A DNA stretch of 64,000 bases from Candidatus Wallbacteria bacterium (GCA_041441465.1 JASDSY010000032.1:72-64071); one strand, 5' to 3'. Positions 1 through 31,262 are shown, numbered from the stretch's first letter. Notes: a model not told the origin generated them from the sequence alone. Made by a program: numbers and translations.

Positions 1-25
1 CGCGCATACGGACTGGCTGTCGCTT

Positions 26-3000
26 GTGGAGCAGAATGGGCTTATACTTTCGGAACCGGTTTTGCTTGAAAATTTTCCTGAAGGGTTTGAGCCGCAAAAC
101 GCAGCGTTAAAATTATTTAAAAGTCAGTACGAAAAATTTTGCGTGGCCGATTCGCCGGCGCCGGCCGTTTTTGAGTTTGTTGATTTTATTTTTGAGAGGC
201 TTCTTGGTTATAAGCTTTATAAGACAAACAATATGCCGGAATGTTATTCGTGCCGGCTTATTGAATATACGCAGGAATTAAAAGCACACAGGGCGCTTGA
301 GGCCGGCGAAAACAGCCTGCTTTTTTATGTAGTGCCGCGCGAGCAGAATTTAAAACGCAATGAAACAATTGACGGCCGCTGGAAAGCTTCGCCGATTGTC
401 AAAATTCAAAGGTTATTGCAGGAGACCGGCAGGCATTTTGGAATCGCCTCGAACGGGCATGAATTTATATTCATATACCGGCCCGATGAAGGCGGATTTA
501 ATTCGATTGCGTTTAATTCCAGGTTTATGATCGATGAGCCGAAAATGTTTAACGCGTTTCTTGGCATATTATCGGAAAAAGTTTTTTCAGGGCTTCTTAA
601 ACTGGCGCGCGATTCGTATCAAAAGCAGATAGAGCTTACGAATACGCTTGGCGATCAGGTACGGCGCGGGGTTGAAAAATTCATAAAAATTATGGACCGC
701 TGTGATATGGAAGCCGGCGGCGGGCTTTTACGCGGTATAGGGCATGATAAGATATATCAAATGAGCATAGCTTCGATTATGAGAATGATATTTCTGCTTT
801 ATGCGGAGGAACGCGGCCTTTTACCCTATGGCGAAATGATTTATGACAATTCATACAGCGTTCACACGCTTGTTAAGGACCTTGAGCTTGAAAAACGCGA
901 CACGCCGGAATTGTTTTCACATAACGCCGACGCGTGGCAGCGATTGGTTGCGCTTTTTAATTTGATATATTTTGGTTCGGGCCATGAGGACCTTAAAAGT
1001 CCTGAGTATTCGGGTGAGCTGTTTGAGCCTGACCGTTATGGCGTTTTGTATGATAAGAAATTCAGGCCAGTCAACAGTGAAATTTATGAGTGCTTGAAAC
1101 TTTTGACGCATACGCAGGCAAAAATCGGAAATGAGTATGTAAGTTCGGCATTTTCATATAAAACTCTCGGAGTTGAGCACATCGGTTATATTTACGAGGG
1201 CCTGCTCGATTATACCGTTAAGCGCGCGGACAATTCGGCAGTTATTAAGTTTGTGCCGGCGGCAAACCAGAAAACTGTCCGGCTTGACGAGCTTATATCT
1301 TTAAAGGGCGAGGCGCTTATAAATTTTGTGGTTGAGAATACCGGCAGCAAGAAAAACAGCGAAGCCAAGGTAAAAAAACTTTTAGACGAAAGCGTTGAAT
1401 CGCTTCCTGAATTAAAAAACATTGATTTGCCGGAAGAAATCAAGGATAAGCTGGCTCCTTTCGCGGCGCTTGTCCAGTTTAACTCGGTTATTTTGCCTGG
1501 CCGGCTTTATGTGTCGGAATCGGCTGACAGGAAGGCGTCGGGCGCGCATTACACGCCGCAGGCGCTTACCGAAAAAATCGTTAAGACGACGCTTGACCCG
1601 CTTGTTTATGTACTTGAAAAAGACAGGGACGGAAATGAATTGCCGGGGAAAATCGCACAGTCGCCAAAATTGAAAAGTCCGCGCGAGCTTCTGACTATTA
1701 AGGTGTGTGATCCGGCGATGGGAAGCGGCGCATTTCTGGTGCAGGCGGTCAGGTATCTTGCCGATAAGCTGGTTGAGACATGGCAGCTCGCGGCGAACGG
1801 CAATAATGAACAGCTCGTCATTCCTTACTGCCAGAAAAGTTTTGGCGCCGAAAATGAACGGCTGCTTCCGGCTGAATATGAGGAACAGTTAAAATACGCC
1901 AAAAGATTTGTGGCGATGGAATGTATTCACGGTGTCGATATAAATCCGCTCGCGGTTGAGATAGCAAAGCTTTCAATATGGCTTGAAACGCTGTCGAAGG
2001 ACCTGCCGTTTACTTTTATAGACCATAAATTACTGTGCGGCGATTCGCTGCTTGGCGTTGCGGCGGCTGATGATGCCGAAAAAATGACCCAGACGGAGTT
2101 ATATGATCTTTTCGGACAGTTTGACGCCAAAAAAATTGAGAGCGCGATAAAAGTTCGCCATGAAATTGAGACTATGCAGGATTTTTCGGTTGAGGACAGA
2201 AAAGTTAAAGTTGAAAAAATGCGCCGGTCCGATGAGGAATTAAAAGAATTAAAGGCGCATGTGACGAAGTTATTCAGAAATCATGTCGAGACGGAAATAA
2301 GCTCAAAGAGCGCAAATAAAAATGAAATAAACCAGAAATCGATAAATTATGACAGCGCTTTTCATTGGTTCATAAACTTTCCGGAAGTGTTTATAAGGCC
2401 GGAAAAAGATAAGGCCGGTTTTGACGCGATTATAGGCAATCCGCCGTTTTTAGGCGGTCAAAAACTTACAGGCTTTTTAGGCGAACCATACAGGGAGTAT
2501 CTTGTCGAGCATATAACTGGCGGAACGCGCGGTTCGGCTGATTTTGTGTCTTACTTCTTTTTGCGCGCGTACGGATTGCTTAAAAATAATGGTAATTTCG
2601 GGCTGCTTGCCACAAATACTATAGCGCAGGGCGATACGCGTGAAGCCAGTCTTGCTAAAATCGTAAATAGTGCGGTGATTTACGCGGCGTTTCCTGATGA
2701 ACCGTGGGAAGGCAACGCCACTGTGACAACGAGCCGCGTTCATGTATGCAAGGCAGAAAAATGGCACGGCAAAAAAATATTATTGGGCGGAGAGGTTGAT
2801 AATATTTCAGCGTTTTTGAGCGCGGAAGATGACAGAAAGCCTTTTACTCTGGTCGCGAATGTTAATAAAGCATTTCAAGGGTCAATTATTCTTGGACTTG
2901 GATTTACTATGTCAGAAGAAGAAGCTGCGAGGTTTATAAATAAAGATTCCAAAAATAAAGATGTTTTGTATCCATATTTGAATGGAAAAGATTTGAACAG

Positions 3001-4054
3001 CTCGCCGGCGCAGAGCCCGAGCCGCTGGGTAATTAATTTCTGGGACTGGGATATTGAACGCGCGAAGCAATATGAAGACCTATTTAAGATTGTCGAGGAA
3101 AAAGTCAAACCAGAAAGAGAAAAAAATAACCGTAAAATATATAAAGAAAATTGGTGGCAATATGCTGAAAAAAGGCCAGCTTTTTATCATGCAATAGGCC
3201 GCTGGCAGTTTTTTGAGAAGCATCCGAAAGGCTATGAATTCCCTGAAAAGCCTATGGAAAGGGTTTTATTAAAAACATTAACAAGTAAATATATGTCATT
3301 TTCATTTTATAATAATGATATTGTGTTTGATCAGACAAATATTGTTTTAGCATTTAATAAAAATTTTTATTTTGCAATATTGCAATCAAATTTACATATG
3401 ATTTGGGCAATTAAACATGGCGCAACTTTAGGATTAGGTCTTCGTTACACGCCGTCAGACTGTTTCGAGACATTTCCGTTTCCGGACATAATTCCGGCTG
3501 CTTCTGAAAAGGTTGATGAATTTATGGCCGCTTTCGGGCAGAGCGGTTATCGCGGAGCCGCAAATGAAAACGCCTATAATTTAATAAAAAAACTTGACAC
3601 GCTCGGTGAAAAATATCATGAACTCAGAAAAGCTATGATGCTAAAATTTGATATGGGCCTGACCGATCTTTACAACGCGTTTCATAATTCGGCTGAAACC
3701 CGTGATGAGTTTATGAACTTGCGTTCATTGCATAAGGAAATCGACGAAACGGTCCTGGCTTCATACGGCTGGGAAGATATAAAACTTTGCCACGATTTTA
3801 TAAGCGTTCCGTATTTGCCGGCAAATGACAGGCTGCGTTATACTATATGCGAAAAATCGCGAATAGAGATTTTAAAAAGACTGCTCCGCCTTAATTTTGA
3901 AAGGCACACTCTCGAGGCAGGTGAAAACAGTTCGGCATCCGGCACACATGGCGGTTCGGGAAAAAGTTCCAAACAATCGGATAAAAACCGGGCCGGAAGC
4001 GTCAAAAAGCAGGCCGCTAAAACTAACACAGATAAAACTGATGATTTATTTTAA
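26..4054 (+). CDS. MmeI/YeeA-family (type IIL/IIG-like) N6-adenine DNA methyltransferase with ~550-aa N-terminal extension; probably 5'-truncated by window edge
   Basis: 1342-aa ORF. The frame stays open back to nt 2 and no purine-rich RBS precedes the GTG at 26. Gamma-class MTase motifs are present: motif I VCDPAMGSGAFLV (nt ~1703-1741), HGVDINPLAVEIAKLSIWLE, and motif IV FDAIIGNPPFLGG (NPPF nt 2438-2449). The C-terminal half carries signatures I recognise from the MmeI/YeeA family: ENWWQYAEKRP, LQSNLHMIW, RYTPSDCFETFPFP. It ends in a Lys/Ser-rich low-complexity tail. Confidence 0.85.
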   Translation: MEQNGLILSEPVLLENFPEGFEPQNAALKLFKSQYEKFCVADSPAPAVFEFVDFIFERLLGYKLYKTNNMPECYSCRLIEYTQELKAHRALEAGENSLLFYVVPREQNLKRNETIDGRWKASPIVKIQRLLQETGRHFGIASNGHEFIFIYRPDEGGFNSIAFNSRFMIDEPKMFNAFLGILSEKVFSGLLKLARDSYQKQIELTNTLGDQVRRGVEKFIKIMDRCDMEAGGGLLRGIGHDKIYQMSIASIMRMIFLLYAEERGLLPYGEMIYDNSYSVHTLVKDLELEKRDTPELFSHNADAWQRLVALFNLIYFGSGHEDLKSPEYSGELFEPDRYGVLYDKKFRPVNSEIYECLKLLTHTQAKIGNEYVSSAFSYKTLGVEHIGYIYEGLLDYTVKRADNSAVIKFVPAANQKTVRLDELISLKGEALINFVVENTGSKKNSEAKVKKLLDESVESLPELKNIDLPEEIKDKLAPFAALVQFNSVILPGRLYVSESADRKASGAHYTPQALTEKIVKTTLDPLVYVLEKDRDGNELPGKIAQSPKLKSPRELLTIKVCDPAMGSGAFLVQAVRYLADKLVETWQLAANGNNEQLVIPYCQKSFGAENERLLPAEYEEQLKYAKRFVAMECIHGVDINPLAVEIAKLSIWLETLSKDLPFTFIDHKLLCGDSLLGVAAADDAEKMTQTELYDLFGQFDAKKIESAIKVRHEIETMQDFSVEDRKVKVEKMRRSDEELKELKAHVTKLFRNHVETEISSKSANKNEINQKSINYDSAFHWFINFPEVFIRPEKDKAGFDAIIGNPPFLGGQKLTGFLGEPYREYLVEHITGGTRGSADFVSYFFLRAYGLLKNNGNFGLLATNTIAQGDTREASLAKIVNSAVIYAAFPDEPWEGNATVTTSRVHVCKAEKWHGKKILLGGEVDNISAFLSAEDDRKPFTLVANVNKAFQGSIILGLGFTMSEEEAARFINKDSKNKDVLYPYLNGKDLNSSPAQSPSRWVINFWDWDIERAKQYEDLFKIVEEKVKPEREKNNRKIYKENWWQYAEKRPAFYHAIGRWQFFEKHPKGYEFPEKPMERVLLKTLTSKYMSFSFYNNDIVFDQTNIVLAFNKNFYFAILQSNLHMIWAIKHGATLGLGLRYTPSDCFETFPFPDIIPAASEKVDEFMAAFGQSGYRGAANENAYNLIKKLDTLGEKYHELRKAMMLKFDMGLTDLYNAFHNSAETRDEFMNLRSLHKEIDETVLASYGWEDIKLCHDFISVPYLPANDRLRYTICEKSRIEILKRLLRLNFERHTLEAGENSSASGTHGGSGKSSKQSDKNRAGSVKKQAAKTNTDKTDDLF

Positions 4055-4074
4055 TTATCGCTGGCCGCGAAGTT

Positions 4075-4395
4075 TTAAGCGACTTTAATATTATTGTTCA
4101 TAATTTCTTTAAAAAAAGGATTTGTTTCATTGAAATCTTTTAACAGAAATGGATGCGGTTCAATACGGCTGTCGATATTTCGCCTTATTTTCATTAATTT
4201 AAAAGTATCATCGATAAGGTCGCCGCTAAAATTATCGGCCACGACGGCAACATCAATATCGCTGTCTTCATTGTATTTTCCGTTGACATACGACCCGAAT
4301 AAATAAACTCCCTTTATATTGAAATCTTTTTTTAATAATTCCGAAAAATTTTTTACGATTTTCAGAATATTTTTTAAATCAACTTCAGCAGCCAT
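4075..4395 (-). CDS. Minimal nucleotidyltransferase (MNT), HEPN-MNT module partner
   Basis: 106 aa with the Pol-beta-type NTase motif LFGSYVNGKYNEDSDIDVAVV (GS-x9-DxD). Overlaps the upstream HEPN gene by 22 nt. Confidence 0.8.
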   Translation of the reverse strand: MAAEVDLKNILKIVKNFSELLKKDFNIKGVYLFGSYVNGKYNEDSDIDVAVVADNFSGDLIDDTFKLMKIRRNIDSRIEPHPFLLKDFNETNPFFKEIMNNNIKVA

Positions 4396-4760
4396 AATCT
4401 AAGCTCCTTTATTGTTTCAATATTTTCTAAAGTATATTTTTCAGTGCATTTTTTGTAAAAATTTTGTTTATAATCCGGATAACGAGCGCTTATGTTAAAT
4501 GTAGTCACAATATCGAGAGAATCTTTTTGCTGTTCATTAAGAATAATTCCTGCTTTTTCTGCAAGTCTTAGTAAATTATGCATTTTGGGAACATTTTCAT
4601 CTATATTTTTTACGTAAATTGCTTTTAGTAATTTTTCAATTACAAGATGACCTACAAATAAACTCCAGCAAAAATCATTAGTCGCAAATAAGTTTTTCAT
4701 TGTGCGAAAATCATTTTCTGAAGTATCTTTCCAATATTTTATTATTTCTTCTTTTTCCAT
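4374..4760 (-). CDS. HEPN domain protein (HEPN-MNT module)
   Basis: 128 aa, all-helical pattern. HEPN-like conserved positions are KMHNLLRLAEK and NISARYPDY. Translationally overlapped with the MNT gene. Confidence 0.75.
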   Translation of the reverse strand: MEKEEIIKYWKDTSENDFRTMKNLFATNDFCWSLFVGHLVIEKLLKAIYVKNIDENVPKMHNLLRLAEKAGIILNEQQKDSLDIVTTFNISARYPDYKQNFYKKCTEKYTLENIETIKELRLWLLKLI

Positions 4761-4851
4761 TTTAATTCCAATTTTATATAAAAAATATTCCTTAAAACAA
4801 ATTGTAACTTATTTATGTGTTAAAAGTCAATATAGTGAATAGAAAATCATC

Positions 4852-4880
4852 TTGAATTTATCAATGGTGTATTGTATAAT
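4852..4880 (+). promoter_or_regulatory. Sigma70-type promoter for the DUF2442-helicase transcription unit
   Basis: TTGAAT (4852-4857), 17-nt spacer, then extended -10 TGTATAAT (4873-4880), about 28 nt upstream of the ATG at 4908. Confidence 0.5.
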
Positions 4881-4907
4881 TTAGATAAAATTAAAAGAGA
4901 TGATAAA

Positions 4908-5156
4908 ATGTATCCTTCTGTAAAAAATGTAAAACCATTAAAAAAAAATATGTTATTGCTTAATTTTGACAATGGCGAAGTTAAGATATTTGATATGAAA
5001 CCTTATTTAGAACAGGGATTATTTAAAGAATTAAATGATGAATCTTTTTTTAATTCTGTTCATGTAAGTTTGGATACTGTTGAATGGTCAAATGGTGTCG
5101 ATATTTGTCCGGAAATTTTTTATGAACAAAGTGTAAAATTTGAAAATTGTGCATAA
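4908..5156 (+). CDS. DUF2442 family small protein
   Basis: The ORF track starts at 4872 (TTG). The ATG at 4908 is preferred because the TTG lies inside the predicted -10 box. MYPSVKNVKPL...LLLNFDNGEVKIFD...VEWSNGVDICPE resembles DUF2442. It ends 23 nt before the helicase gene. Confidence 0.6.
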   Translation: MYPSVKNVKPLKKNMLLLNFDNGEVKIFDMKPYLEQGLFKELNDESFFNSVHVSLDTVEWSNGVDICPEIFYEQSVKFENCA

Positions 5157-5179
5157 TTTAATAATTTAGAGGGTTAGAA

Positions 5180-8100
5180 ATGAGTTTAAATCCTGTAAAA
5201 TTTGGTAAGGATGTAATTGATCAATTCGGGCGTTATTTAAGAAACAGTTTTCCGATAGCTGATGAAAATATAGCGGCCCAGTTTAATGAAAAATTGCGAT
5301 ATTCAAGCGACAGCCTGATAGCTAAAGGTCCCTACATATACTTAAATAAGCCTTTTATCGAAGGAAAATCACTTTCTGACCTCATTAACGAAATTGGACT
5401 GCACCGCAACATAAAAGATATATTCAAATTTCCTTCAATGCATTCTCATCAGGAAAAAGCTGCCAGATTAGTCATTAAAGATAAAAAGAACATAATAATT
5501 TCGACGGGCACCGGCTCAGGAAAGACCGAAAGCTTCCTTCTGCCGGTTGTTGATTATTGCTTGAAAGCCATCGATAATAATGAAAACAAAGGATTAATGG
5601 CTGTAATTGTATATCCTATGAACGCGCTTGTAAATGACCAGCTTGAAAGACTGCGCCCGCTTCTTGCCGGCACCGGCATCACATTCGCCCGCTATACAGG
5701 CGAAACCCCCCAGAACGAAACAGGCGTTGAAAGGCTTGAACAGAAAAGAGGATACACTGAAAAAGAACTCAGCGATTTTTACGACAATAAGGCTGATCTT
5801 CCGATACCATACGAGGAGTGCTATTCGCGCGATGAGATCGTGAAAAAACGGCCGAATATATTGTTGACAAATTACAGCCAGCTTGAATACCTTCTTTTAA
5901 GAGATAAAGACCTTGACATATTTACCGGTAAGTCGCTTAAATACCTTGTCCTTGATGAAGTGCATACTTATACGGGCGAACTTGGCAGTGAAATGGCTTG
6001 CCTTTTAAGGCGGATAAAATCGCTGATGCGCGAGAATATAACGTGTATAGGAACATCGGCGACAGTCGCCGGAGATGGCAGCGGCGCTGAGGTGATTAAA
6101 AAATTCGCGGCAGGGCTTTTTGGCGAAAAGAAAGAAAGTTTTGAGGTTATAGAAGAGGAATACAAGGAATCTATATCTAAAAAACATAAGTCATATATTT
6201 CTAAAATTCCCGCAACTCCAGAATTATTATTAATTCAAATTCTCGATGAAGTGAAATCGCTTTATTTGCAAGCTGAAATTGATGAAATAACTCCTGAACT
6301 TTTGCGTTTGGGCGAAAAATTAACAGGCAGTCCGGCGGCTTCTGCCGGCGGCAAAAACATTGATAAACTTGGTGAGTTGCTTGTAAAAAGCGATTACATA
6401 AATTTAATTGAGGATTTTTTTTCAAAACCGTCTTTGCCTTCCGAAGTATTTCCGGCGCTGAAAAATACGGAATGTCGAAAATTATCGGCTGACAATGAGC
6501 TCGAAGCTGAATTATTGTCTTATTTAATACTTGGCGCTGTCGGTCGGTTTGAAAATGAACCGGTGATCAGGCCTAAGCTCCATTATTTCATAAGGGGCGC
6601 CGGCGGGGCTAAATGCACGGTAAATAACGAAAATGAACTCAAATTGTTTTTTGATAATAGTTATGATAAGGAGAAATACGCTTTTTCATTCAAAGTCTGC
6701 CGTGACTGCGGCCAGCATTTTTTTGACGTAGTCACCGAAGCTGATCCTTTAAATGAAGACGGCATAGGCGTTTATCAAATTTTACGCAACCGAAAAGACG
6801 GCGAGCAAATTTTAGGCGATGAAAAATCATGGTATATTACCAATAAATTAAACGAATTGGATGAAAACTCAGAAAGCGGTATTCCTGTATATTTATGTTC
6901 AAGCTGCGGCGCGGTCCATCTCAAGAAAACTGAAGTTTGCATGAAACCTAAATGCAGAAAAAGAGGCGCTATTGTTAAAATGGCGCTTTTTGAGGGTGAT
7001 ATAAAGTATTGCCCTTCCTGTTCAACTTCGATAATGCGCGGCAGTTATAACATGATATCCGAAATAAGGAGTGTCGAAGTTTCTGATGTCATGATTATCG
7101 GACAGTCAATGCTTTCTGCTATGCCTGAAAAGGAACTGCAAAAATTATTAATTTTTGCCGACAGCCGCCAGGACGCCGCGTTTCAGGCCGCGTGGATGAA
7201 TATGCGTTCCAAACGGTTTAATATGAGGTACCTGAATTATACGGCGATTAAAAATTTTAAAAGCGAATTTGATAATGCAATATCATTTGATAAAATGGTT
7301 TCGCTGCTTACTGATGAGGCTTTTAACGCCGGCATTTATAAGGATTCCGGTTTTAATAAAGAGGCCGTAAATAAAAAAATAAAGTGGTTTTTGATCGATG
7401 AATATGTATCGACACGCCAGAAATCCAATCTGGAGCGAATCGGGCTTGTAAGCGTCGTTTATTACGGCTTGAACGAAAATTACGAGGGTGACGCGTTTAT
7501 AAAGGAATGGGCGCAAAAATTAAGGGTTACTGAAGAAAAAGTCATAAATACGATAACTTTAATGTTAAATTACCTTAGAAAGCGCGGCGCGGTAAATGAT
7601 GAACTTGCCAGACGTCTCTGGAGCTATACTGATTCGGAAGTGCGCGACGGAATCATTCCTTTGATCGATGAATATAGGCCAGGCGCTTTTGTTTTAGAAA
7701 AAAACGAGGCGTTAAAGGACAAAGGCTATGTTAAAGGACTTATTTCTTCAAACGGCCGGTCGGGCGTCGAAGTAATATACAAAAAATCATTTCCAGGATC
7801 GCTTGCCTCGCGTGAATTTTTAGAAAATTTATGGGAATATTTAAAGGATAAAAATATAATCTGCGAATCGCGGCTGATTGTTAAAAAATATGGTAAATTC
7901 GAGGAATTGATAAAAAAATCCAGTAAAAAGCTATATCAGATTAATAAGGACGTTATAGGATTTAAAAGCGCTCAAAAAATATACAGATGCTGCACATGCC
8001 GCGAAATTTTTAATGTAATGCCTGAAAATATGAAGTGCATGAATTATAACTGTAAGGGCAGCGTCGTTGAAAGCGCGCTTGATACTGAAAATTATGATAT

Positions 8101-10411
8101 AGTGCAATATACCATGATGAATTATACGCCGATGAAATCGTTTGAGCATTCGGCACAGGTGCCTAAAGATGACAGGGCGTCTATTGAAAAGGAATTCAAA
8201 AAAACCGCCGGCACCTGCAATTGCCTTGTCGCGACGCCTACGCTTGAACTCGGAGTGGATATTGGAAAGCTTGAAATGGTGCTCATGCGAAATGTCCCGC
8301 CGGCGACTCCAAATTATACGCAGCGTTCGGGCCGTGCCGGGCGTAAACATAGAATAGCTACGGTTTTTACTTACGTTCGTAACGTTTCGCACGATAATTA
8401 TTTTTATAATAATCCGCCTGAAATGATAACCGGCACGGTACGAATACCGGCTTTTTCAATGCGCAATAAGCCGCTGATTACAAAGCACATCAGGTCTGCC
8501 GTAATGACCTGGCTGCGGCTGCGGCGTGATGAAAAAATCGATGAAATATTAAATATGACTTTTCCTTTGTATATTAAGAATTATATTTCATATATCGATG
8601 AGGAACGCAATTGCGTCGTTTTTAAAGAAAAAATCGAGGGTACGGATAAATTCAAAAAGTTAATATCTGATTACTTTGATAAATTGGTTGAATACGCGGC
8701 CAATACATTTTTAAAAAGCTGGCCGGAGGAAGATGCAAAAGAAATCAATATTGAATTTGTCCGCGATGTCATAAAACAAATGGGCGAAAGCCTCGAAAAT
8801 CACATAAAAGATTTGCATCTTGAAATCAGGACTTATAAGATTTTATTAAATGAGTTGAAAAATCTTGATCACTTAAATAGCGCCGAATCTAAAAAGCGCT
8901 TTTCGTTAGAGCACGCCCGTAATTCATACTTAAACGAGAATCAGGAAAATTATACGCTCTCATATTTGACTAAAGATGGCTTTTTTCCAGGCTATGCAAT
9001 GGGGCGTACAAGCGTTTCGGCACAGTGCGCTGAGCCGTTCATTGAAATTACAAGGCCGAGCGCTGTCGCAATAAGAGAGTTGACGCCGGCTAATAGTTTG
9101 TACGCTAACCGTGAGATTTTTAAAGTTAAGCAGTTTAATTTTTATAAACTGCGAGAGAAATCACCGGACTTTAAAGTTGAATCGCTTCGTAAAAATATGG
9201 TTCTAAATACTAATAATAACTCGATAATGGAGCATGACAGCATTACTATGGCCGGCGGCAAAAATAATTACATCGATTTTGGCTCATTCGAAATGATCGA
9301 TGTTACTCTTGAACAGGTCAATAAAATAGATGATATCAAAGAATCGCGAAAGCGTGTCGGCTTCAGGATTAGCGGCATTTTACAGTCTGATCATAAAGGC
9401 GGCGAAGAATATTGCATCAACACGCTTACAATTACGAAACTGCGTAACTGTAAAGTAAGGCTTATAAATCTTGGTACGACTGTAAGCAGCCGTATTGGCT
9501 TTCCTATATGTCCGGTGTGCGGCGCGGTGCGTAATCCTGGCTCATCTGAGGCTGAGCTTGAAAGTTTTATTAACGCTCACACTTCAAATAAATGCAACGT
9601 CAAAAACCCTGAAGAATTATGGTCGGCGCTGCATTCTGATATTGCGTCAGATGTATTGTCAATTGGCGAGTTTGATGATGAGGCCGACGCGGTTAATTTT
9701 ATGGAAGCGTTGGAACTTGGCGCCTATGAAGAGCTTGATATGCACGAAGGCGATATTGACGGAGTGATAGAATATAAGCCGAATAATAAATTCAGGATTA
9801 TTTTTTATGACCCGATGCCGGGCGGCAGTGGATTTTTGGAACAATTCCTTGAAAATTACAAAAAAATCGCGGCAGCGGCAGATAAAATTTTGAGTTCATG
9901 CGATTGCGATGAGGCTTGTTATAAATGCCTGCTGCATTTCAGAAATCAACAGCATCATAAAATATTAAACAGAGCTAAATCTATCGAGATAATAAAAAGA
10001 TTTATTGCCGCGCCGAAATTTAAAAATATCATTCCGGCAAGTATCGGTGAACAGCCTGAACATTCAGGCGGCGATAGCGGCGCTGAAGATAAATTTATAA
10101 AGCTTCTTCATGATCATAAGTTTCCAATACCGCATAATTCACAGTTAAAGATTGATCTTGGTAATTTATCATATACAGTCGCAGATTATGCCTATCAAAC
10201 AGATTTAAAACCGGTGCTGATTTATGTTGACGGTTTATCGAATAAGCTTCATGGCAATCCGGAAATAAAGCAGCGCGACGGCAAGATACGGTCAAAAGCT
10301 AAAATGCTTGGCTATAAAGTAATAGAAGTGCCGGCGCAGGCATTGGATGACGATGAATATTTTTCAATGATTTTACAGGAAATTGCGGATTCGATTAAAT
10401 TTAAGATATGA
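5180..10411 (+). CDS. Giant SF2 DEAD/DEAH helicase fused to a DUF1998/MZB zinc module and a C-terminal DUF559/Vsr-like endonuclease domain (DrmA+DrmB / DruE-like)
   Basis: 1743 aa; RBS gaggg 7 nt upstream. Helicase motifs: I STGTGSGKTE (nt 5501-5530), Ia VYPMNALVNDQ, Ib LLTNYSQLE, II LDEVH (nt ~5954-5965), III GTSAT, IV LLIFADSRQDA (nt ~7144), V VATPTLELGVDIG, VI QRSGRAGR (nt 8321-8344). DUF1998-type module: GFPICPVCG (nt ~9509), FYDPMPGGSGFLEQ, CDCDEACYKCLLH (nt 9899-9937). C-terminal nuclease-like block (nt ~10085-10408): EDKFIKLL...TVADYAY...VLIYVDG...LHG...QRDGKIRSKAKMLGYKVIEV. Confidence 0.85.
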   Translation: MSLNPVKFGKDVIDQFGRYLRNSFPIADENIAAQFNEKLRYSSDSLIAKGPYIYLNKPFIEGKSLSDLINEIGLHRNIKDIFKFPSMHSHQEKAARLVIKDKKNIIISTGTGSGKTESFLLPVVDYCLKAIDNNENKGLMAVIVYPMNALVNDQLERLRPLLAGTGITFARYTGETPQNETGVERLEQKRGYTEKELSDFYDNKADLPIPYEECYSRDEIVKKRPNILLTNYSQLEYLLLRDKDLDIFTGKSLKYLVLDEVHTYTGELGSEMACLLRRIKSLMRENITCIGTSATVAGDGSGAEVIKKFAAGLFGEKKESFEVIEEEYKESISKKHKSYISKIPATPELLLIQILDEVKSLYLQAEIDEITPELLRLGEKLTGSPAASAGGKNIDKLGELLVKSDYINLIEDFFSKPSLPSEVFPALKNTECRKLSADNELEAELLSYLILGAVGRFENEPVIRPKLHYFIRGAGGAKCTVNNENELKLFFDNSYDKEKYAFSFKVCRDCGQHFFDVVTEADPLNEDGIGVYQILRNRKDGEQILGDEKSWYITNKLNELDENSESGIPVYLCSSCGAVHLKKTEVCMKPKCRKRGAIVKMALFEGDIKYCPSCSTSIMRGSYNMISEIRSVEVSDVMIIGQSMLSAMPEKELQKLLIFADSRQDAAFQAAWMNMRSKRFNMRYLNYTAIKNFKSEFDNAISFDKMVSLLTDEAFNAGIYKDSGFNKEAVNKKIKWFLIDEYVSTRQKSNLERIGLVSVVYYGLNENYEGDAFIKEWAQKLRVTEEKVINTITLMLNYLRKRGAVNDELARRLWSYTDSEVRDGIIPLIDEYRPGAFVLEKNEALKDKGYVKGLISSNGRSGVEVIYKKSFPGSLASREFLENLWEYLKDKNIICESRLIVKKYGKFEELIKKSSKKLYQINKDVIGFKSAQKIYRCCTCREIFNVMPENMKCMNYNCKGSVVESALDTENYDIVQYTMMNYTPMKSFEHSAQVPKDDRASIEKEFKKTAGTCNCLVATPTLELGVDIGKLEMVLMRNVPPATPNYTQRSGRAGRKHRIATVFTYVRNVSHDNYFYNNPPEMITGTVRIPAFSMRNKPLITKHIRSAVMTWLRLRRDEKIDEILNMTFPLYIKNYISYIDEERNCVVFKEKIEGTDKFKKLISDYFDKLVEYAANTFLKSWPEEDAKEINIEFVRDVIKQMGESLENHIKDLHLEIRTYKILLNELKNLDHLNSAESKKRFSLEHARNSYLNENQENYTLSYLTKDGFFPGYAMGRTSVSAQCAEPFIEITRPSAVAIRELTPANSLYANREIFKVKQFNFYKLREKSPDFKVESLRKNMVLNTNNNSIMEHDSITMAGGKNNYIDFGSFEMIDVTLEQVNKIDDIKESRKRVGFRISGILQSDHKGGEEYCINTLTITKLRNCKVRLINLGTTVSSRIGFPICPVCGAVRNPGSSEAELESFINAHTSNKCNVKNPEELWSALHSDIASDVLSIGEFDDEADAVNFMEALELGAYEELDMHEGDIDGVIEYKPNNKFRIIFYDPMPGGSGFLEQFLENYKKIAAAADKILSSCDCDEACYKCLLHFRNQQHHKILNRAKSIEIIKRFIAAPKFKNIIPASIGEQPEHSGGDSGAEDKFIKLLHDHKFPIPHNSQLKIDLGNLSYTVADYAYQTDLKPVLIYVDGLSNKLHGNPEIKQRDGKIRSKAKMLGYKVIEVPAQALDDDEYFSMILQEIADSIKFKI

Positions 10412-10498
10412 TAATTAATTAGATTTTGCGGCTTAATCAAGTTTTTCTTTTCATTTCATTAATTCATTAATTTTTTTATTGATATATTATGGCGTGAT

Positions 10499-10549
10499 GG
10501 GGGACACAAAGGGTTGAGAACCCTTTGATTTCCCCCATTCCCCCTTTTT
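10499..10549 (+). terminator. Candidate intrinsic terminator downstream of the helicase gene
   Basis: GGGGGA-ca-CAAAGGGTT-gag-AACCCTTTG-att-TCCCCC nested hairpin (10499-10536). A second CCCCC run (10540-10544) is directly followed by TTTTT (10545-10549). Confidence 0.45.
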
Positions 10550-10613
10550 AATCCCGGTTATTTCTACCGTTGTTTCGACGGTTCTGTCGTTTGCATTTGT
10601 GGTTTTGGTTTTA

Positions 10614-10656
10614 ATTTCCGCAAAGCGCGGCCGCCGGCCGCTTACTTTGCGGAAAT
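10614..10656. other. GC-rich long hairpin in non-coding gap
   Basis: ATTTCCGCAAAG (10614-10625) is perfectly complementary to CTTTGCGGAAAT (10645-10656). The inner GCGGCCG-c-CGGCCGC segment is also self-complementary. Confidence 0.6.
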
Positions 10657-10800
10657 ACAGCAATCGGCCGCGCGAGTTTATAATATGACTATATACTAAC
10701 GTTTGCGGCCGAAGGTGAAGAGTTATGATACCGTAAGCTATAGGTTTAAATGGTGAATAATGCAGTAAAACAAAGCTTTGAATAAAATATAAGAGCAATT

Positions 10801-10875
10801 GGAGGGTCGCTCACCTCCCTCATAGGGTCTATGCCTTGCGGCATACATCCAGATGGCTGGAGCGCATTTCCATCT
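10801..10875. other. Three consecutive short stem-loops (possible small structured RNA)
   Basis: GGAGG/CCTCC (10801-10818), TATGCC-ttgc-GGCATA (10830-10845), AGATGG/CCATCT (10851-10875). Strand and function unknown. Confidence 0.35.
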
Positions 10876-11042
10876 TTCAATCACTCTCAATTATAATTAT
10901 AATCTATTTGCTTTTAATATGTCAATTTAAAGTTAAAATGTTCGATTTTTCAAAAATTATTATATAGACAGTTCATGAAATTTTGTTCCTCCGGCAGGCG
11001 GAGCCTGCATATAAGGGCTTCAAAGTATTTAGTAACTTCATT

Positions 11043-11078
11043 TCGCGAAATTTTATGCGCGAGCATAAGATTTCGCGA
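11043..11078. other. Long hairpin
   Basis: TCGCGAAAT-t-TTATGC-gcga-GCATAA-g-ATTTCGCGA: two stacked stems (9 bp and 6 bp). Confidence 0.5.
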
Positions 11079-11205
11079 TTGCTGAATTTGTGCAAAGCAA
11101 ACAGTTTAGACTAAAAATAAAAAAGCACTATTGATGTTCATGAAATTTTTAATGTATTAATCAAAATAATACTATAAAAAACTTTTTACGAGTGAACGTT
11201 TCCGC

Positions 11206-11270
11206 AGGTGCACTTGTGGTCGAAGGTCAGGCCCGGCGCCGAGGACCAAGTGAACGAGAAAAAAGTTTTT
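11206..11270. repeat. Copy A of a ~65-nt hairpin-containing direct repeat
   Basis: aggtgCACTTGtgGTCgaaggtcaggcccggcgccgagGACCAAGTGaacgagaaaaaagttttt; aligns with copy B at 11359-11421 with about 7 differences. Confidence 0.7.
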
Positions 11271-11358
11271 TTATTCCTTAGCCGCCCCCTTATCGTAAAG
11301 TAACATAATTATAAAGCTGTGCAAAGTTTTTTTCAAAAACTGATACTGTCTAATCCAA

Positions 11359-11421
11359 AGGTGTACTTGTGGTCGAAGGTCAGGCCCGACACCGAGGACC
11401 AAGTAAACAAAAAAAAGTTTT
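11359..11421. repeat. Copy B of the ~65-nt hairpin-containing direct repeat
   Basis: aggtgTACTTGtgGTCgaaggtcaggcccgacaccgagGACCAAGTAaacaaaaaaaagtttt; ends immediately next to the stop codon (11424-11426) of the minus-strand membrane gene. Confidence 0.7.
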
Positions 11422-11423
11422 AT

Positions 11424-13265
11424 TTATTGGCATTCGACAAAAACTCTTTTTTCTTCAGGAGAACTTTTTTCATTAAATATTACTTCGTATTTCTTTGCGC
11501 CGGTGTTTCCGGAGAGCCAGTTATCTGACGTTTCTATTATTTTTATATCGTAATAATCATTTTTGTAAATTGTGCCGGATTCAAGTTTTATAGGCTCGCC
11601 GCATGCCATTTCGTCGAACAGGCTTGCGTAGTAAGGCCTGAATGCCGGCGCTTCGAATGAAATCTTACCGTCGGTTAATTTTACTGATGATTCGGGGCGT
11701 TTCAGTTCGCCCCAGCTGCTCAATACAAACGGCTTGAATTTGTCTTTTTCAGGATGTTTTAATTTGAAATCAAGGATTGCCGGGATAATGACGCACGGCG
11801 TTTCGTGTAAGTAAAGATGGCAGTGTTCGCCTGTTTTTTTGTAATAACTGCCGTTAATGTATTCGTCGTATTTGACGTTTATTTTGTTTGCGATTTGATC
11901 GGAATAATTCGTACAGTATTGAAAAAATATGAAGGTAAATGTCGATGCCGCTAAAAATGCAAGTAAATAAATGATTATATATGTTTTCTTGAAGCTGATT
12001 TTAATGGATTCGAGTTTTAGGAAGAACCAAGCCGCGAGGCCGGTTATGAAAAATGACGGCATGTAGTAGTAATGCGGCGTCGGTATGAGCATGATGGTTG
12101 GAAGCTGTGTAATGACGGAACCGGAAATAAGGAGTATAAATAAGGAATCGAATTTATCCCGATTATTTTTATAAATTACGAGCGTCAGATAGCTTAGCAG
12201 CAGGGAGAGAATCACGATGGCGAGATTGTAAGCTGCTTTATAAAAAAACAGTTTGATTGGCGGCGAGGGCAGGAAAAATAAAATTGTGACAAATGAAAAT
12301 AATAATTTTTGAAAGGCATAATAGAAAAATAAAAGCCATGATGTGAAGGAGCTGTCCGGCGAAAACACGTAAAATTTGAAATTAGGCAGAGAAAAATCGC
12401 CGAAACATTTTAATCTTAAGATCGAGTAAGCGAAAAAAATAATTAAATAGAAGAGAAAGTATAAGGCTGATATTTTGAAAATATTGAAATTATTTTGATG
12501 GCTAGTTGTGTCGGAGTTATATAATTTATAAAATGTGATTATGAAAATAACAGCTGGTATGATAGCGGCAGTTTCTTTTGACAGCAATGCCGCAAAAAAG
12601 AATAAAAGTGAAAAAAGTAAATAAATTAAGGATTGTGAATTTATGTTTGAATTTTTCATGGCGGCTGCGGGTGTGGCAGTATTGGAAGGTGATTGCATTA
12701 AATTCCGGTTTATTAATAGATTAATATGTTTAGAATAAAGGCACAGGGCGCAGAGCGCGAAAAAGCAGAACAGCAGGTCGGTGCGGGATGAAATCCAGAA
12801 AATGGTAAAAACGTTGGCATGGCTTAATGCGAATAAGATTGCGGCAAGCAGCGCGAATTTTTTGTTATGTGTAATGAGGAGCCATAGAAGATAAAGCAGA
12901 GCGGTGTTGAATGAGGCTAAAAGAATATTTTGAACATGATAAAAATTGTAGTAATTATCCGCGAAAATATAGTCTAATTTGAAGGAAGCGATAACGGCAG
13001 GCCGGAAAAATCTCGCCTCTGCGTTAAGCGCCGCCGGAACGAAGCCGTTATGAAATGGCGCGAATCCGTGTTTAAATGAATTGGCGAGTGAATTGAAGTT
13101 CCATTCGGCATTTTTGGCGTTATAGATATTGGCGTAGTCATCGAGGAATATTCCGGAGAAAAATGAAGGCAGATAACAGAGTAATGCGGCGAAAAACAGC
13201 AAAATCGCCGTTTGACGAGCGCGTGTCTGGCTGATTTTATTGAAAATTGAAATTATTTTAAGCAT
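11424..13265 (-). CDS. Polytopic membrane protein, GT-C fold (family 39/TMTC-like) glycosyltransferase candidate
   Basis: 613 aa with more than 10 hydrophobic segments. The N-terminal FFSGIFLDDYANIYN resembles the F-x-DD motif of PMT/TMTC-type GT-C enzymes. Soluble C-terminal ~170 aa. Confidence 0.5.
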   Translation of the reverse strand: MLKIISIFNKISQTRARQTAILLFFAALLCYLPSFFSGIFLDDYANIYNAKNAEWNFNSLANSFKHGFAPFHNGFVPAALNAEARFFRPAVIASFKLDYIFADNYYNFYHVQNILLASFNTALLYLLWLLITHNKKFALLAAILFALSHANVFTIFWISSRTDLLFCFFALCALCLYSKHINLLINRNLMQSPSNTATPAAAMKNSNINSQSLIYLLFSLLFFFAALLSKETAAIIPAVIFIITFYKLYNSDTTSHQNNFNIFKISALYFLFYLIIFFAYSILRLKCFGDFSLPNFKFYVFSPDSSFTSWLLFFYYAFQKLLFSFVTILFFLPSPPIKLFFYKAAYNLAIVILSLLLSYLTLVIYKNNRDKFDSLFILLISGSVITQLPTIMLIPTPHYYYMPSFFITGLAAWFFLKLESIKISFKKTYIIIYLLAFLAASTFTFIFFQYCTNYSDQIANKINVKYDEYINGSYYKKTGEHCHLYLHETPCVIIPAILDFKLKHPEKDKFKPFVLSSWGELKRPESSVKLTDGKISFEAPAFRPYYASLFDEMACGEPIKLESGTIYKNDYYDIKIIETSDNWLSGNTGAKKYEVIFNEKSSPEEKRVFVECQ

Positions 13266-13322
13266 AAATTAAAAAATCACCATTGTTATTAATAAATCGA
13301 AAAAATATCCGATAAAAAAAAT

Positions 13323-13658
13323 ATGAAATTGGAAATAATGGAATTCATAAAAAGAAAAAATTCGATGTTAATGGTTATGATGCTGGCGGTTTCGCTTTTA
13401 TCGCTGGCGGCCGGCTGTTCGAATAATAATGATTCTGGAGGCACGCAGAATTATCTTTTTTATAACCGCTACGGCGCGCCCGAAGTTGTTAATTACATTG
13501 AAAAATATGGAAATGATTATGAAAAAACGCAATTTGTGGATTCAGGCAAATCGTACGGAAAAATGACCTGGCACTCAAAAGGTGTTGCTGTCACTTATCT
13601 TTATGACACCGGGCAGGTGGTTAAGGAAGAAACGTTTAACCCTGATTCGAGCAAGTAA
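13323..13658 (+). CDS. Small lipoprotein, unknown function
   Basis: Signal peptide plus lipobox LSLAAGC-S; 111 aa. Confidence 0.5.
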   Translation: MKLEIMEFIKRKNSMLMVMMLAVSLLSLAAGCSNNNDSGGTQNYLFYNRYGAPEVVNYIEKYGNDYEKTQFVDSGKSYGKMTWHSKGVAVTYLYDTGQVVKEETFNPDSSK

Positions 13659-13902
13659 TATAAAAACTAAAATAATCCTGTCATGTTCTAAAAATTGTTC
13701 AGTAAAACTAATATCATTACAAGCGGTAAATGTTATTTGTTTTTATCGAAAAAACTAATTTTAAAATCAAATCGCTTTAAATAATACATACAATCGAGTA
13801 CTAAGATTACTCAATCAAATAAATGTTTAGATATTTTATTCAAGCTGACTGAAAAAACGCATTTAGGTTTATTAATAGCCAGCTTGAAATTTCTAGCTTT
13901 TC

Positions 13903-31256: not shown

Positions 31257-31262
31257 GAAATA

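What the first reader, a model, noticed from the sequence alone, without database searches (positions are those of the whole stretch)
1..10411. MmeI-family methyltransferase plus giant helicase-DUF1998-endonuclease fusion: compact, non-canonical DISARM/Druantia-like defence candidate
SEEN: (i) A >1342-aa N6-adenine MTase (DPAMGSGAFLV, GNPPFLGG, NWWQY...FETFPFP) at 26-4054. (ii) A 1743-aa protein at 5180-10411 that concatenates three modules. These are a full SF2 helicase motif set (GTGSGKTE, DEVH, TSAT, QRSGRAGR), a DUF1998/MZB-type Cys4 module (CPVCG ... DPMPGGSGFLEQ ... CDCDEACYKCLLH), and a C-terminal DUF559/Vsr-like nuclease fold (ADYAY..LIYVDG..H..RD..GYKVIEV). ESTABLISHED: methylase + helicase + DUF1998 + nuclease is the logic of DISARM (DrmMI/MII, DrmA, DrmB, PLD-nuclease DrmC). 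A giant DUF1998 helicase (DruE) is the hallmark of Druantia. From memory, MmeI-like MTases lacking their own nuclease are known next to helicase genes (B. subtilis yeeA-yeeB-yeeC). INFERENCE: here helicase, DUF1998 and nuclease are one polypeptide and the PLD nuclease is replaced by a Vsr-fold domain. No SNF2 DrmD, DrmE, or DruA-D/F-H genes are in view. That points to a two-gene methylation-gated restriction-like system that matches no named architecture I know. CAVEAT: the MTase ORF is open to the window edge, so upstream partners cannot be excluded.
Basis: partly seen in the sequence, partly recalled or inferred. Interest (0 to 1): 0.9.

Follow-up and report, generated by a model that had tools for sequence, protein, structure and literature searches.

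The report
ARMADA Type I anti-phage defence locus
The two giant genes are real, but they are two of the three genes of ARMADA Type I, a phage-defence system named in 2025, so this is a new example of a known kind and not a new architecture.

Summary
Both ORFs and every quoted motif are present. The methyltransferase (1-4054) matches PADLOC DrmMI at 1222 bits. The 1743-aa protein (5180-10411) is a YprA/DruE-like DExH helicase with DUF1998/MZB and a C-terminal Vsr-like nuclease. The claims "two-gene" and "matches no named architecture" fail. A contig 96% identical over 10.5 kb continues upstream into a full-length DrmD-like SNF2 helicase. SNF2 + DrmMI/PglX-like MTase + YprA helicase fused to a Vsr nuclease is the ARMADA system (ArmA/ArmB/ArmC) of Bell et al. 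2025. Two full-length 40%-identical homologues, and the contigs of five related loci, are listed in that paper's Table S1 as "ARMADA Type I helicase". No ArmD (the Type II marker) follows; housekeeping genes do. ArmA-ArmB lie upstream in 14 of 18 related loci with enough flank. Only Type II has been tested experimentally. Side observation: the armB-armC junction is a variable cargo slot. Here it holds a 26.7%-GC MNT/HEPN + DUF2442 cassette. Elsewhere it holds DarTG, PIN, nucleases and an OLD-like ATPase.

The parts
1..4054 (+). armB: DrmMI/PglX-like (YeeA-related) N6-adenine DNA methyltransferase. It is 5'-truncated by the window edge by about 9 codons.
   Evidence: PADLOC DrmMI PDLC02643 at 1222 bits. 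Pfam Eco57I, MmeI_Mtase, MmeI_TRD, N6_Mtase. Window nt 1 corresponds to L001 nt 3552, and the L001 gene starts at 3526.
1709..1735 (+). ArmB SAM-binding motif DPAMGSGAF (motif I, GxG)
   Evidence: By motif it corresponds to G605 in the GxG motif of E. coli ArmB, whose mutation partly reduced defence (paper).
2435..2449 (+). ArmB catalytic motif GNPPF (motif IV)
   Evidence: By motif it corresponds to the NPPW of E. coli ArmB, where N971A abolished defence.
2900..3490 (+). ArmB target-recognition domain (MmeI_TRD, aa 967-1163). This is the hypervariable part of the gene.
   Evidence: Pfam MmeI_TRD 1e-11. Against the 96%-identical contig L001, aa 900-1200 have dN/dS 0.42 and 64 differences within columns 1000-1200, while aa 1-900 have dN/dS 0.08.
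4075..4395 (-). Minimal nucleotidyltransferase (MNT), the antitoxin-type partner of the HEPN gene. Inserted cargo, not a core ARMADA gene.
   Evidence: Pfam Polbeta 7e-15 and NTP_transf_2 5e-13; PADLOC PDC-S09. The insert 4055-5179 is 26.7% GC against 43% and 40% in the flanking genes.
4374..4760 (-). HEPN-domain protein overlapping the MNT gene (a TA-like pair). Inserted cargo.
   Evidence: Pfam HEPN 4.8e-17. No Rx4-6H motif was found, so RNase activity is uncertain.
4872..5156 (+). DUF2442 small protein. Inserted cargo.
   Evidence: Pfam DUF2442 6e-14. In L001 it is called as an 81-aa gene.
5180..10411 (+). armC: ARMADA Type I YprA-family DExH helicase, DUF1998 and Vsr nuclease in one polypeptide (1743 aa)
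   Evidence: The homologues P0041 (MBW2703779.1) and P0027 (MCG2766883.1) are 40% identical over 100% of the length and are listed as 'ARMADA Type I helicase' in Table S1 of Bell et al.. dN/dS against L001 is 0.077.
5408..6169 (+). ArmC RecA1 lobe, with Walker A GTGSGKTE (K115) and Walker B DEVH (D259)
   Evidence: Pfam DEAD aa 90-297. The motifs are invariant across 27 homologues.
6170..8128 (+). About 650-aa insertion between RecA1 and RecA2. It contains six invariant Cys pairs: C507/510, C573/576, C587/592, C611/614, C937/940 and C953/958.
   Evidence: The position and CxxC content fit the BrxA-like + beta-barrel zinc module + MarR-like insert described for ARMADA/Druantia helicases. The fold itself was not tested here.
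8129..8539 (+). ArmC RecA2 lobe, with motif VI QRSGRAGR
   Evidence: Pfam Helicase_C aa 984-1056. PDB sequence hits are 9tu7 (a 2108-aa DEAD/DEAH box helicase, 2e-57) and MrfA/YprA 6znp (2e-25).
9701..9931 (+). MZB/DUF1998 Zn-binding module (C1574, C1576, C1580, C1583). An extra CPVC lies at aa 1444-1447 (nt 9509-9520).
   Evidence: Pfam MZB 1.9e-13. The model of aa 1420-1743 has pLDDT 91 and its best fold hit is MrfA 6znp, E 1.3e-4.
10076..10399 (+). C-terminal Vsr/DUF559-like PD-(D/E)xK nuclease domain. Conserved residues are E1636, D1669, D1684-G1685, H1691 and D1700.
   Evidence: Residue conservation. The best fold hits are 3r3p (probability 0.99) and 3hrl (0.82), followed by other PD-(D/E)xK nucleases. 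There is no Pfam hit.

Best explanation
The region is the right-hand two thirds of an ARMADA Type I (disARM-related Antiviral Defense Array) locus in a bacterial chromosome, with gene order armA-armB-[cargo]-armC. armA is a DrmD/BrxHII-like SNF2 ATPase and lies just left of the window. armB (1-4054) is a DrmMI/PglX-like N6-adenine methyltransferase with its own target-recognition domain. armC (5180-10411) is a YprA/DruE-like DExH helicase carrying the OB-CON-DUF1998 canopy and a predicted active Vsr-type nuclease.

Shown here: the identity and intactness of the genes, conservation of the catalytic motifs, purifying selection, conserved three-gene synteny, and assignment to the authors' Type I clade.

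Inferred from relatives: ArmB marks host DNA at a TRD-specified adenine motif. ArmC loads on ssDNA-containing or end-containing invader DNA and translocates 3'-to-5', as MrfA and DruE do. ArmA supplies dsDNA translocation or remodelling. The Vsr domain cuts the invader. The outcome would be direct, non-abortive clearance, as measured for E. coli ARMADA Type II, where Walker A/B of ArmA and ArmC and the NPPW of ArmB are all required. Whether methylation actually gates the nuclease is not known for any ARMADA.

The MNT/HEPN + DUF2442 genes between armB and armC are a later AT-rich insertion into a junction that commonly holds unrelated cargo.
For: PADLOC gives ArmB = DrmMI at 1222 bits, and ArmC best = DruE1 at 402 bits against DrmA at 77 bits. 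L001 is 96% identical to window 1-10528 and carries a 1015-aa SNF2 gene upstream that matches DrmD at 1004 bits. The ARMADA definition and Type I/II features come from Bell et al.. P0041 and P0027 (40% identity, full length) are listed as 'ARMADA Type I helicase', as are the contigs of L014, L017, L018, L022 and L075, which cluster with the window protein in an NJ tree. ArmA and ArmB lie upstream on the same strand in 14 of 18 related loci with at least 8 kb of upstream flank, with 2 more partial, and also in L084-L088 and the archaeal plasmid L089. No UvrD/GajB-like ArmD follows; downstream are a membrane protein and then dapA, cdaA, ybbR, dprA, topA, rpoB and rpoC. The Vsr-like fold and conserved D/D/H/D residues are supported. 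dN/dS against L001 is 0.077 for ArmC and 0.084 for ArmB aa 1-900. Mechanistic analogies rest on the ARMADA II genetics, the DruE 3'-5' ssDNA helicase result and DISARM class 1.
Against: armA is not in the window itself; it is inferred from a 96%-identical contig and from relatives. No Type I ARMADA has been tested experimentally. The fold-search E-values for the Vsr domain are weak (0.013). Bell et al. mark the Type I Vsr domain 'active?'. An oppositely oriented cassette separates armB from armC, so co-expression of armC with armAB is not assured. In class 1 DISARM, deleting the methylases is not autoimmune, so a simple restriction-modification-like gate may not apply. Bell et al. say Type I is 'generally' ordered armC-armA-armB; this locus has the order they call reversed.
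Confidence: 0.87

Rival explanations
1. It is a compact class 1 DISARM in which DrmA, DrmB and DrmC have fused and the PLD nuclease was swapped for Vsr.
For: DrmD-like and DrmMI-like genes are present at very high PADLOC scores. The overall logic of helicase + DUF1998 + nuclease is the same.
Against: The helicase scores 402 bits on DruE1 against 77 bits on DrmA, and only 21.6 bits on NCBIfam DISARM_DrmAL (cut-off 999). Bell et al. place ARMADA helicases with Druantia and not in the DISARM/Dpd branch, and DISARM is defined by a separate DrmB and a PLD DrmC. Neither a separate DrmB nor a PLD gene is present here.
Confidence: 0.05
2. It is a Druantia-type system: DruE with new partners.
For: The best PADLOC hits are DruE1 to DruE4. 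The best solved-structure sequence match is a 2108-aa DEAD/DEAH box helicase, 9tu7, at 2e-57; I take it to be DruE from its size, not from the entry.
Against: No DruA-D, DruM/F/G or DruH hit appears among the neighbours. The conserved partners are instead SNF2 + MTase. Close homologues are catalogued as ARMADA and not as Druantia.
Confidence: 0.03
3. One reading: a self-sufficient two-gene MTase + helicase-nuclease restriction-like system of an unnamed architecture.
For: Only these two large genes are visible inside the window. PADLOC-DB 2.0.0 (2023) has no model that names the combination.
Against: An SNF2 gene sits immediately upstream in the near-identical contig and in relatives. The architecture was named in 2025. 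In the tested Type II system armA is essential.
Confidence: 0.02
4. It is a decaying or non-functional remnant in which a mobile TA cassette has uncoupled armC from armAB.
For: A 1.1-kb AT-rich insert with oppositely oriented genes separates armB and armC. A Synechocystis plasmid relative is visibly fragmented.
Against: Both ORFs are intact and all catalytic motifs are retained. dN/dS is about 0.08 between the two strains that both carry the insert. Cargo at this junction is the common state among intact Type I loci.
Confidence: 0.03

Closest known systems
ARMADA Type I (Bell et al. 2025, bioRxiv 10.1101/2025.09.15.676423)
   Same: The gene set matches: a BrxHII/DrmD-like SNF2 (ArmA), a PglX/DrmMI-like MTase (ArmB), and a YprA-like helicase with a large Zn-rich insert, DUF1998 and a single C-terminal Vsr nuclease (ArmC). 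There is no ArmD. Full-length 40%-identical homologues are listed by the authors as Type I.
   Different: The order is armA-armB-armC, which the paper describes as the 'reversed' order seen in many archaea and cyanobacteria. Here the host is a bacterium with an unsplit rpoC, so I infer it is neither. An MNT/HEPN/DUF2442 cassette sits between armB and armC. ArmC identity to the catalogued members is only 40%.
ARMADA Type II of E. coli (NCTC 12900, ATCC 8739, EDL933; reference locus L083 on plasmid NZ_CP127005.1)
   Same: The order is the same (armA-armB-armC) and the three core enzymes are the same. This is the only ARMADA with experimental proof of direct, non-abortive anti-phage activity.
   Different: Type II adds ArmD (GajB-like UvrD helicase with a RelE-like N-terminus). 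Its ArmC is 2113 aa, with extra EEP/Vsr-like domains. Identity to the window proteins is 22-26% for ArmC, 30% for ArmA and 25% for ArmB. It forms a separate clade. armB and armC overlap, with no cargo slot.
DISARM class 1 (DrmD, DrmMI, DrmA, DrmB, DrmC)
   Same: It shares the SNF2 (DrmD) and adenine MTase (DrmMI) families at very high scores. The components are the same kind: helicase + DUF1998 + nuclease.
   Different: DISARM has a separate DrmA helicase and DrmB DUF1998 protein and a PLD nuclease DrmC. Here there is one polypeptide of a different YprA branch with a Vsr nuclease.
Druantia DruE (types I-III)
   Same: This is the closest helicase family by profile score (DruE1, 402 bits) and by solved structure (9tu7, which I take to be DruE). 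It shares the insert between RecA1 and RecA2. Types I and II also end in a Vsr-like domain, predicted inactive.
   Different: The partner genes differ (DruA-D, DruMFG or DruH against SNF2 + MTase). Type III has PLD domains.
MmeI / Type IIG restriction-modification enzymes and BREX PglX
   Same: ArmB shares the MTase and TRD modules (Pfam MmeI_Mtase and MmeI_TRD; PDB 5hr4 at 6.5e-5; weak PglX hits).
   Different: No MmeI N-terminal nuclease domain was detected. The N-terminal 750 aa align with DrmMI profiles instead. No BREX genes (BrxA/B/C/L, PglZ) are present.

Membership tests
ARMADA Type I | The YprA-family helicase belongs to the ARMADA Type I clade. | tested here: met
   P0041 (MBW2703779.1) and P0027 (MCG2766883.1) are 40% identical over 100% of the length and are listed as 'ARMADA Type I helicase'. 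The NJ tree groups the window protein with L014, L017, L018, L022 and L075, whose contigs are also listed as Type I, and apart from the E. coli Type II clade. The tree is a simple NJ tree without bootstrap support.
ARMADA Type I | An adjacent BrxHII/DrmD-like SNF2 helicase (ArmA). | tested here: met
   Met by proxy only, because the gene lies off-window. Contig L001 (96% nt identity over 10.5 kb) has a 1015-aa SNF2 gene ending 126 nt before armB, and it matches PADLOC DrmD at 1004 bits. The same arrangement is seen in 14 of 18 relatives.
ARMADA Type I | An adjacent PglX/DrmMI-like adenine methyltransferase (ArmB) with intact catalytic motifs. | tested here: met
   PADLOC DrmMI at 1222 bits. 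DPAMGSGAF and GNPPF are present, and an MmeI_TRD domain is detected.
ARMADA Type I | A single C-terminal Vsr-type PD-(D/E)xK nuclease on ArmC, predicted active. | tested here: met
   The AF2 model's best fold hits are 3r3p and 3hrl, the same entries Bell et al. report. D1669, D1684, H1691 and D1700 are invariant or at least 90% conserved. The statistical support is modest (E 0.013), and there is no Pfam hit.
ARMADA Type I | BrxA-like, beta-barrel zinc-module and MarR-like domains inserted between RecA1 and RecA2, and one inserted domain in the OB region. | tested here: inconclusive
   A 650-aa insert with six invariant Cys pairs sits at the right position, and there is one extra CPVC before DUF1998.
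ARMADA Type I | Absence of ArmD, the GajB-like UvrD helicase with a RelE-like domain that marks Type II. | tested here: met
   No UvrD-like gene occurs downstream. The next genes are a polytopic membrane protein, a rubrerythrin-like gene, dapA and cdaA. tblastn with E. coli ArmD finds it only in L060, L077, L078 and L083, plus an opposite-strand hit in L038.
ARMADA Type I | Confers anti-phage protection. | not testable with these tools
   Only Type II has been tested.
DISARM class 1 | The core triplet: a DrmA helicase, a separate DrmB (DUF1998) and a PLD nuclease DrmC. | tested here: not met
   Helicase and DUF1998 are in one ORF. The DrmA profiles score 77 bits or less, against 402 bits for DruE1. 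NCBIfam DrmA scores 21.6 bits against a cut-off of 999. No PLD domain is found.
DISARM class 1 | DrmD SNF2 and DrmMI methylase. | tested here: met
   ARMADA shares these two families by definition.
Druantia | DruE accompanied by DruA-D (type I), DruM/F/G (type II) or DruH (type III). | tested here: not met
   None of the neighbouring ORFs hits any Dru partner profile. The neighbours in 20 or more related loci are SNF2 + MTase.
Type IIG restriction-modification (MmeI-like) | An N-terminal PD-ExK nuclease fused to the MTase-TRD. | tested here: not met
   No MmeI_N or other nuclease domain appears in ArmB aa 1-423, even at E<=10.

The most novel reading that the evidence does not exclude
The armB-armC junction of ARMADA Type I is a dedicated cargo slot that recruits small toxin or effector modules. 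It holds MNT/HEPN here and in L084, DarT + Macro (DarTG-like) in L022, a PIN pair in L090, an OLD/AriA-like ATPase in L029, and PD-(D/E)xK nucleases in L010 and L011. On the most novel reading these modules are functionally coupled to ARMADA as a second-line, abortive back-up that fires when the system is inhibited. I draw two comparisons from my own knowledge: the PrrC nuclease embedded in the EcoprrI restriction-modification locus, and the RelE-like domain on Type II ArmD. Bell et al. do not mention this slot.
Probability: 0.15. Interest if true: 0.6.

Novelty: new member of a known kind. Interest (0 to 1): 0.3.

Why it matters
The finding does not open a new category. The architecture was described, named and partly validated in 2025-2026. 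Three smaller points remain of value.

- It adds an intact, purifying-selected Type I ARMADA from an uncultured bacterial lineage (nearest ArmC relatives 58-59% identical; the named ones are Candidatus Wallbacteria MAGs at 58%). Type I is the untested half of the family.
- Comparison with a 96%-identical strain shows that divergence concentrates in the ArmB target-recognition domain. This suggests rapid switching of methylation specificity.
- The armB-armC junction is a recurrent landing site for TA and defence cargo. That makes testable the question of whether embedded toxins back up large helicase-nuclease systems.

Tried and rejected
- Pfam on the isolated C-terminal 132 aa and on the ArmB N-terminal 423 aa at E<=10 gave no hits. 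The nuclease call therefore rests on structure and conserved residues.
- NCBIfam returned nothing above any curated cut-off for either protein.
- The first genome-contig scan with the single protein found no relatives. The profile-based second scan did.
- A 'distant' blastn of a related ArmC gene against E. coli genomes, meant to fetch a Type II reference, hit Druantia III (yjiT + DEAD/DEAH helicase in the immigration control region). The Type II reference came from a plasmid tblastn instead.
- The fold search with the two-domain model (DUF1998 + nuclease) was dominated by MrfA. The nuclease domain had to be modelled alone.
- Looking for ArmD downstream of ten related loci found UvrD only in L060. 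The others were AAA_5, an ABC-type/AAA_21 ATPase, Fic, a transporter or unknowns.
- tRNA and Rfam scans of the whole window were empty, so no integration-site evidence was obtained.
- Promoter and terminator scans of 3800-5400 were not above shuffled expectation.
- The two 39-nt repeats downstream fold no better than shuffles.
- I considered and rejected DISARM, Druantia and Type IIG membership (see the membership tests).


Full report
**Observation.** ORF 26..4054 (+) has no stop codon back to the window edge. Translated from nt 2 it gives 1350 aa with the SAM-binding motif DPAMGSGAF (aa 570-578), the catalytic GNPPF (aa 812-816), NWWQY and FETFPFP. ORF 5180..10411 (+) gives 1743 aa with GTGSGKTE, DEVH, TSAT, QRSGRAGR, CPVCG, DPMPGGSGF, CDCDEACYKC, ADYAY, IYVDG and GYKVIEV.

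Pfam assigns Eco57I, MmeI_Mtase, MmeI_TRD and N6_Mtase to the first protein. It assigns DEAD, Helicase_C, MZB (DUF1998) and ResIII to the second.

Pfam does not recognise the last 130 aa, even at E<=10. An AlphaFold2 model built on 62 homologues has a well-predicted core (pLDDT >90 for aa 1640-1740). Its best PDB fold matches are the I-Bth0305I catalytic domain (3r3p, probability 0.99, TM 0.59-0.61) and NGO0050 (3hrl, probability 0.82, TM 0.58), followed by other PD-(D/E)xK nucleases. The residues E1636, D1669, D1684-G1685, H1691 and D1700 are invariant or at least 90% conserved in the family. The Vsr/DUF559-like call is therefore supported, though with weak Foldseek E-values (0.013).

A second model, of aa 1420-1743 (pLDDT 91), matches the DUF1998 module of MrfA (6znp, E 1.3e-4).

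**Named families.** In PADLOC-DB the methyltransferase is DrmMI (PDLC02643, 1222 bits, covering its N-terminal 750 aa as well as the catalytic and TRD part). The helicase is closest to DruE1 (402 bits) and the other DruE profiles, and far from DrmA (77 bits). NCBIfam gives nothing above any curated cut-off.

**The missing third gene.** The helicase has hundreds of full-length homologues of about 1760 aa in many phyla. The 99%-identical protein P0001 lies on a 14-kb contig (L001). That contig aligns to window 1-10528 at 96% nt identity without rearrangement, with window nt 1 corresponding to L001 nt 3552. In L001 the methyltransferase starts 26 nt to the left of the window edge. It is preceded, 126 nt upstream, by a 1015-aa SNF2 protein that matches PADLOC DrmD end to end at 1004 bits.

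**It is a described system.** A full-text search for DrmD, DrmMI and DruE together led to two papers. [quoted passage not shown] The other is an EHEC study (mBio 2026, PMC13463889).

Bell et al. define ARMADA as operons that combine three genes:
- ArmA, a BrxHII/DrmD-like SNF2 helicase.
- ArmB, a PglX/DrmMI-like, YeeA-related methyltransferase.
- ArmC, a YprA-family helicase most similar to DruE, carrying the OB-CON-DUF1998 array and a C-terminal predicted active Vsr nuclease.

Type II adds ArmD, a GajB-like UvrD helicase with a RelE-like domain, and often carries extra inactive domains on ArmC.

I tied the window protein to that catalogue directly. P0041 (MBW2703779.1) and P0027 (MCG2766883.1) are both 40% identical over 100% of the length, and both appear in Supplementary Table S1 as 'ARMADA Type I helicase'. 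So do the contigs of five loci that I had fetched independently: L014, L017, L018, L022 and L075. In an NJ tree of 87 helicases the window protein sits inside the clade containing those loci. The E. coli Type II reference (L083, plasmid NZ_CP127005.1: ArmA 952 aa, ArmB 1634 aa, ArmC 2113 aa, ArmD 704 aa) forms a separate clade with L077 and L078. Window proteins are only 22-30% identical to the E. coli ones.

No ArmD follows the window's armC. Downstream lie about 1 kb of non-coding DNA, a polytopic membrane protein on the other strand, and then dapA, cdaA, ybbR, dprA, topA, a GidA-family gene (trmFO-like), rpoB and an unsplit 2329-aa rpoC. This is ordinary bacterial chromosome.

**Synteny.** A profile-guided scan of one genome per GTDB species returned 80 loci. 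Within the Type I-side clade, 18 loci had at least 8 kb of upstream flank. Of these, 14 had ArmA and ArmB upstream on the same strand, 2 had ArmB only at the flank edge (L010, L022), and 2 lacked both apart from a 60-bit ArmB trace at the flank edge of L021 (L021, L023). The nearest relatives show the same trio. These are L084 (59% ArmC identity), L085/L086 (58%; members of this protein cluster are annotated Candidatus Wallbacteria) and L087/L088 (48%), and a Natrinema plasmid (L089) shows it too. Every complete case was ordered armA-armB-armC, including a Streptomyces locus (L015). Bell et al. state that Type I is 'generally' armC-first, with the reverse order in many archaea and cyanobacteria. 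My sample is biased toward relatives of this window, so I record the discrepancy without resolving it.

**Integrity.** Against L001, ArmC has 98.8% aa identity with dN/dS 0.077, and ArmB aa 1-900 has dN/dS 0.084. Both genes are under purifying selection. ArmB columns 1000-1200, which lie inside the TRD, carry 64 of the 112 amino-acid substitutions seen across the protein, and the wider block aa 900-1200 has dN/dS 0.42 and elevated dS. This fits the report that armB is the variable component of E. coli ARMADA II and suggests specificity switching.

**The intervening genes.** Nucleotides 4055-5179 are 26.7% GC, against 43% for armB and 40% for armC. This stretch encodes an overlapping MNT/HEPN pair on the minus strand and a DUF2442 protein on the plus strand. 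The HEPN protein has no Rx4-6H motif.

This junction is variable across Type I loci. The armB-armC gap is at least 900 nt in 11 of 17 loci, while the armA-armB junction overlaps or is at most 3 nt in 13 of 18. The cargo differs from locus to locus:

| Locus | Cargo between armB and armC |
|---|---|
| L084 | DUF6602, an unknown 1275-aa protein, MNT and HepT |
| L085/L086 | An unknown 1271-aa protein and a Schlafen-AlbA_2 protein |
| L011 | A REase-ARP nuclease |
| L029 | An OLD/AriA-like ATPase |
| L024, L022 | RmrA-like HTH-M78 proteins |
| L022 | DarT + Macro (DarTG-like) |
| L010 | DUF2357 + PD-(D/E)xK |
| L090 (Synechocystis plasmid) | A small ORF plus a PIN protein |

In Type II loci armB and armC overlap. 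The paper does not mention HEPN or this slot.

**Mechanism.**
- *Shown here:* gene content, motif conservation, selection and clade membership.
- *Taken from experiments on relatives:* E. coli ARMADA II protects directly, without growth arrest. It needs all genes, and it needs Walker A/B of ArmA and ArmC and the NPPW of ArmB. DruE is a 3'-to-5' ssDNA-dependent helicase. Class 1 DISARM defence is enhanced by unmethylated cognate sites, but deleting its methylases is not autoimmune.
- *Inferred for this locus:* ArmB marks self DNA at a TRD-defined adenine motif. ArmC (K115, D259) engages ssDNA-containing invader DNA, helped by the SNF2 ArmA. The Vsr domain cleaves that DNA. Whether methylation gates cleavage is unknown.

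**Verdict.** The novelty claim does not stand. This is a new, divergent member of ARMADA Type I, with armA just off-window. The cargo slot at the armB-armC junction and the TRD divergence are the residual points of interest.

Noticed in passing
window 4055-5179; L010, L011, L022, L024, L029, L084, L085, L087, L090 between armB and armC: The armB-armC junction of Type I ARMADA loci is a variable cargo slot. The gap is at least 900 nt in 11 of 17 loci. Cargo includes MNT/HEPN or HepT pairs, DarT + Macro, a PIN pair, an OLD-like ATPase, PD-(D/E)xK nucleases, HTH-M78 proteins and large unknown proteins. The armA-armB junction is tight by comparison. The ARMADA paper does not mention this.
   Followed up: partly
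window 2700-3600 (ArmB aa 900-1200) versus L001: Between two loci that are 96% identical overall, ArmB divergence concentrates in the target-recognition domain. Columns 1000-1200 carry 64 differences, and aa 900-1200 have dN/dS 0.42, against 0.08 for the first 900 aa. This suggests a switch in methylation specificity.
   Followed up: partly
L002-L089 (Type I-side clade): Every complete Type I locus I sampled, including Streptomyces L015 and Natrinema L089, is ordered armA-armB-armC. Bell et al. say Type I is generally armC-first. My sample is biased toward relatives of this window.
   Followed up: partly
L060:15724-17769: A Bryobacterales locus has an ArmC that clusters on the Type I side, yet it carries a UvrD-like, ArmD-like gene directly downstream (310 bits to E. 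coli ArmD). It may be an intermediate between Types I and II.
   Followed up: no
L084:5378-9205 and L085:4496-8311: A conserved protein of about 1271-1275 aa with no Pfam hit on record in either locus (and none in my Pfam/PADLOC scan of the L085 copy) sits between armB and armC in the two closest non-identical relatives (58-59% ArmC identity). It is absent from the window.
   Followed up: no
window 4374-4760 (-): The HEPN protein (Pfam 4.8e-17) lacks the Rx4-6H RNase motif, so it may not be a catalytic toxin.
   Followed up: no
window 11213-11251 and 11366-11404 (+): Two copies of a 39-nt direct repeat (37 of 39 identical), each followed by an A-run and then a T-run, lie in the roughly 1-kb non-coding stretch between armC and the membrane-protein gene. 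There are no other copies in the window, none are expected by chance, and the fold is not significant.
   Followed up: partly
window 26379-38363: rpoB (1625 aa) and an unsplit rpoC (2329 aa) are unusually long. rpoC carries weak M23 and biotin-lipoyl-like matches near aa 1820-2040. Together with dapA, cdaA-ybbR, dprA and topA this shows a bacterial chromosomal context and not a mobile element. No tRNA or Rfam hit occurs anywhere in the 64 kb.
   Followed up: no
L082 (E. coli NZ_CP023388.1) 7363-17003: yjiT plus a frameshifted 2100-aa DEAD/DEAH helicase lie next to mcrBC and hsdRMS, which I read as Druantia III (DruH/DruE) in the immigration control region. This came up as an off-target hit while I was seeking an ARMADA II reference.
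   Followed up: no
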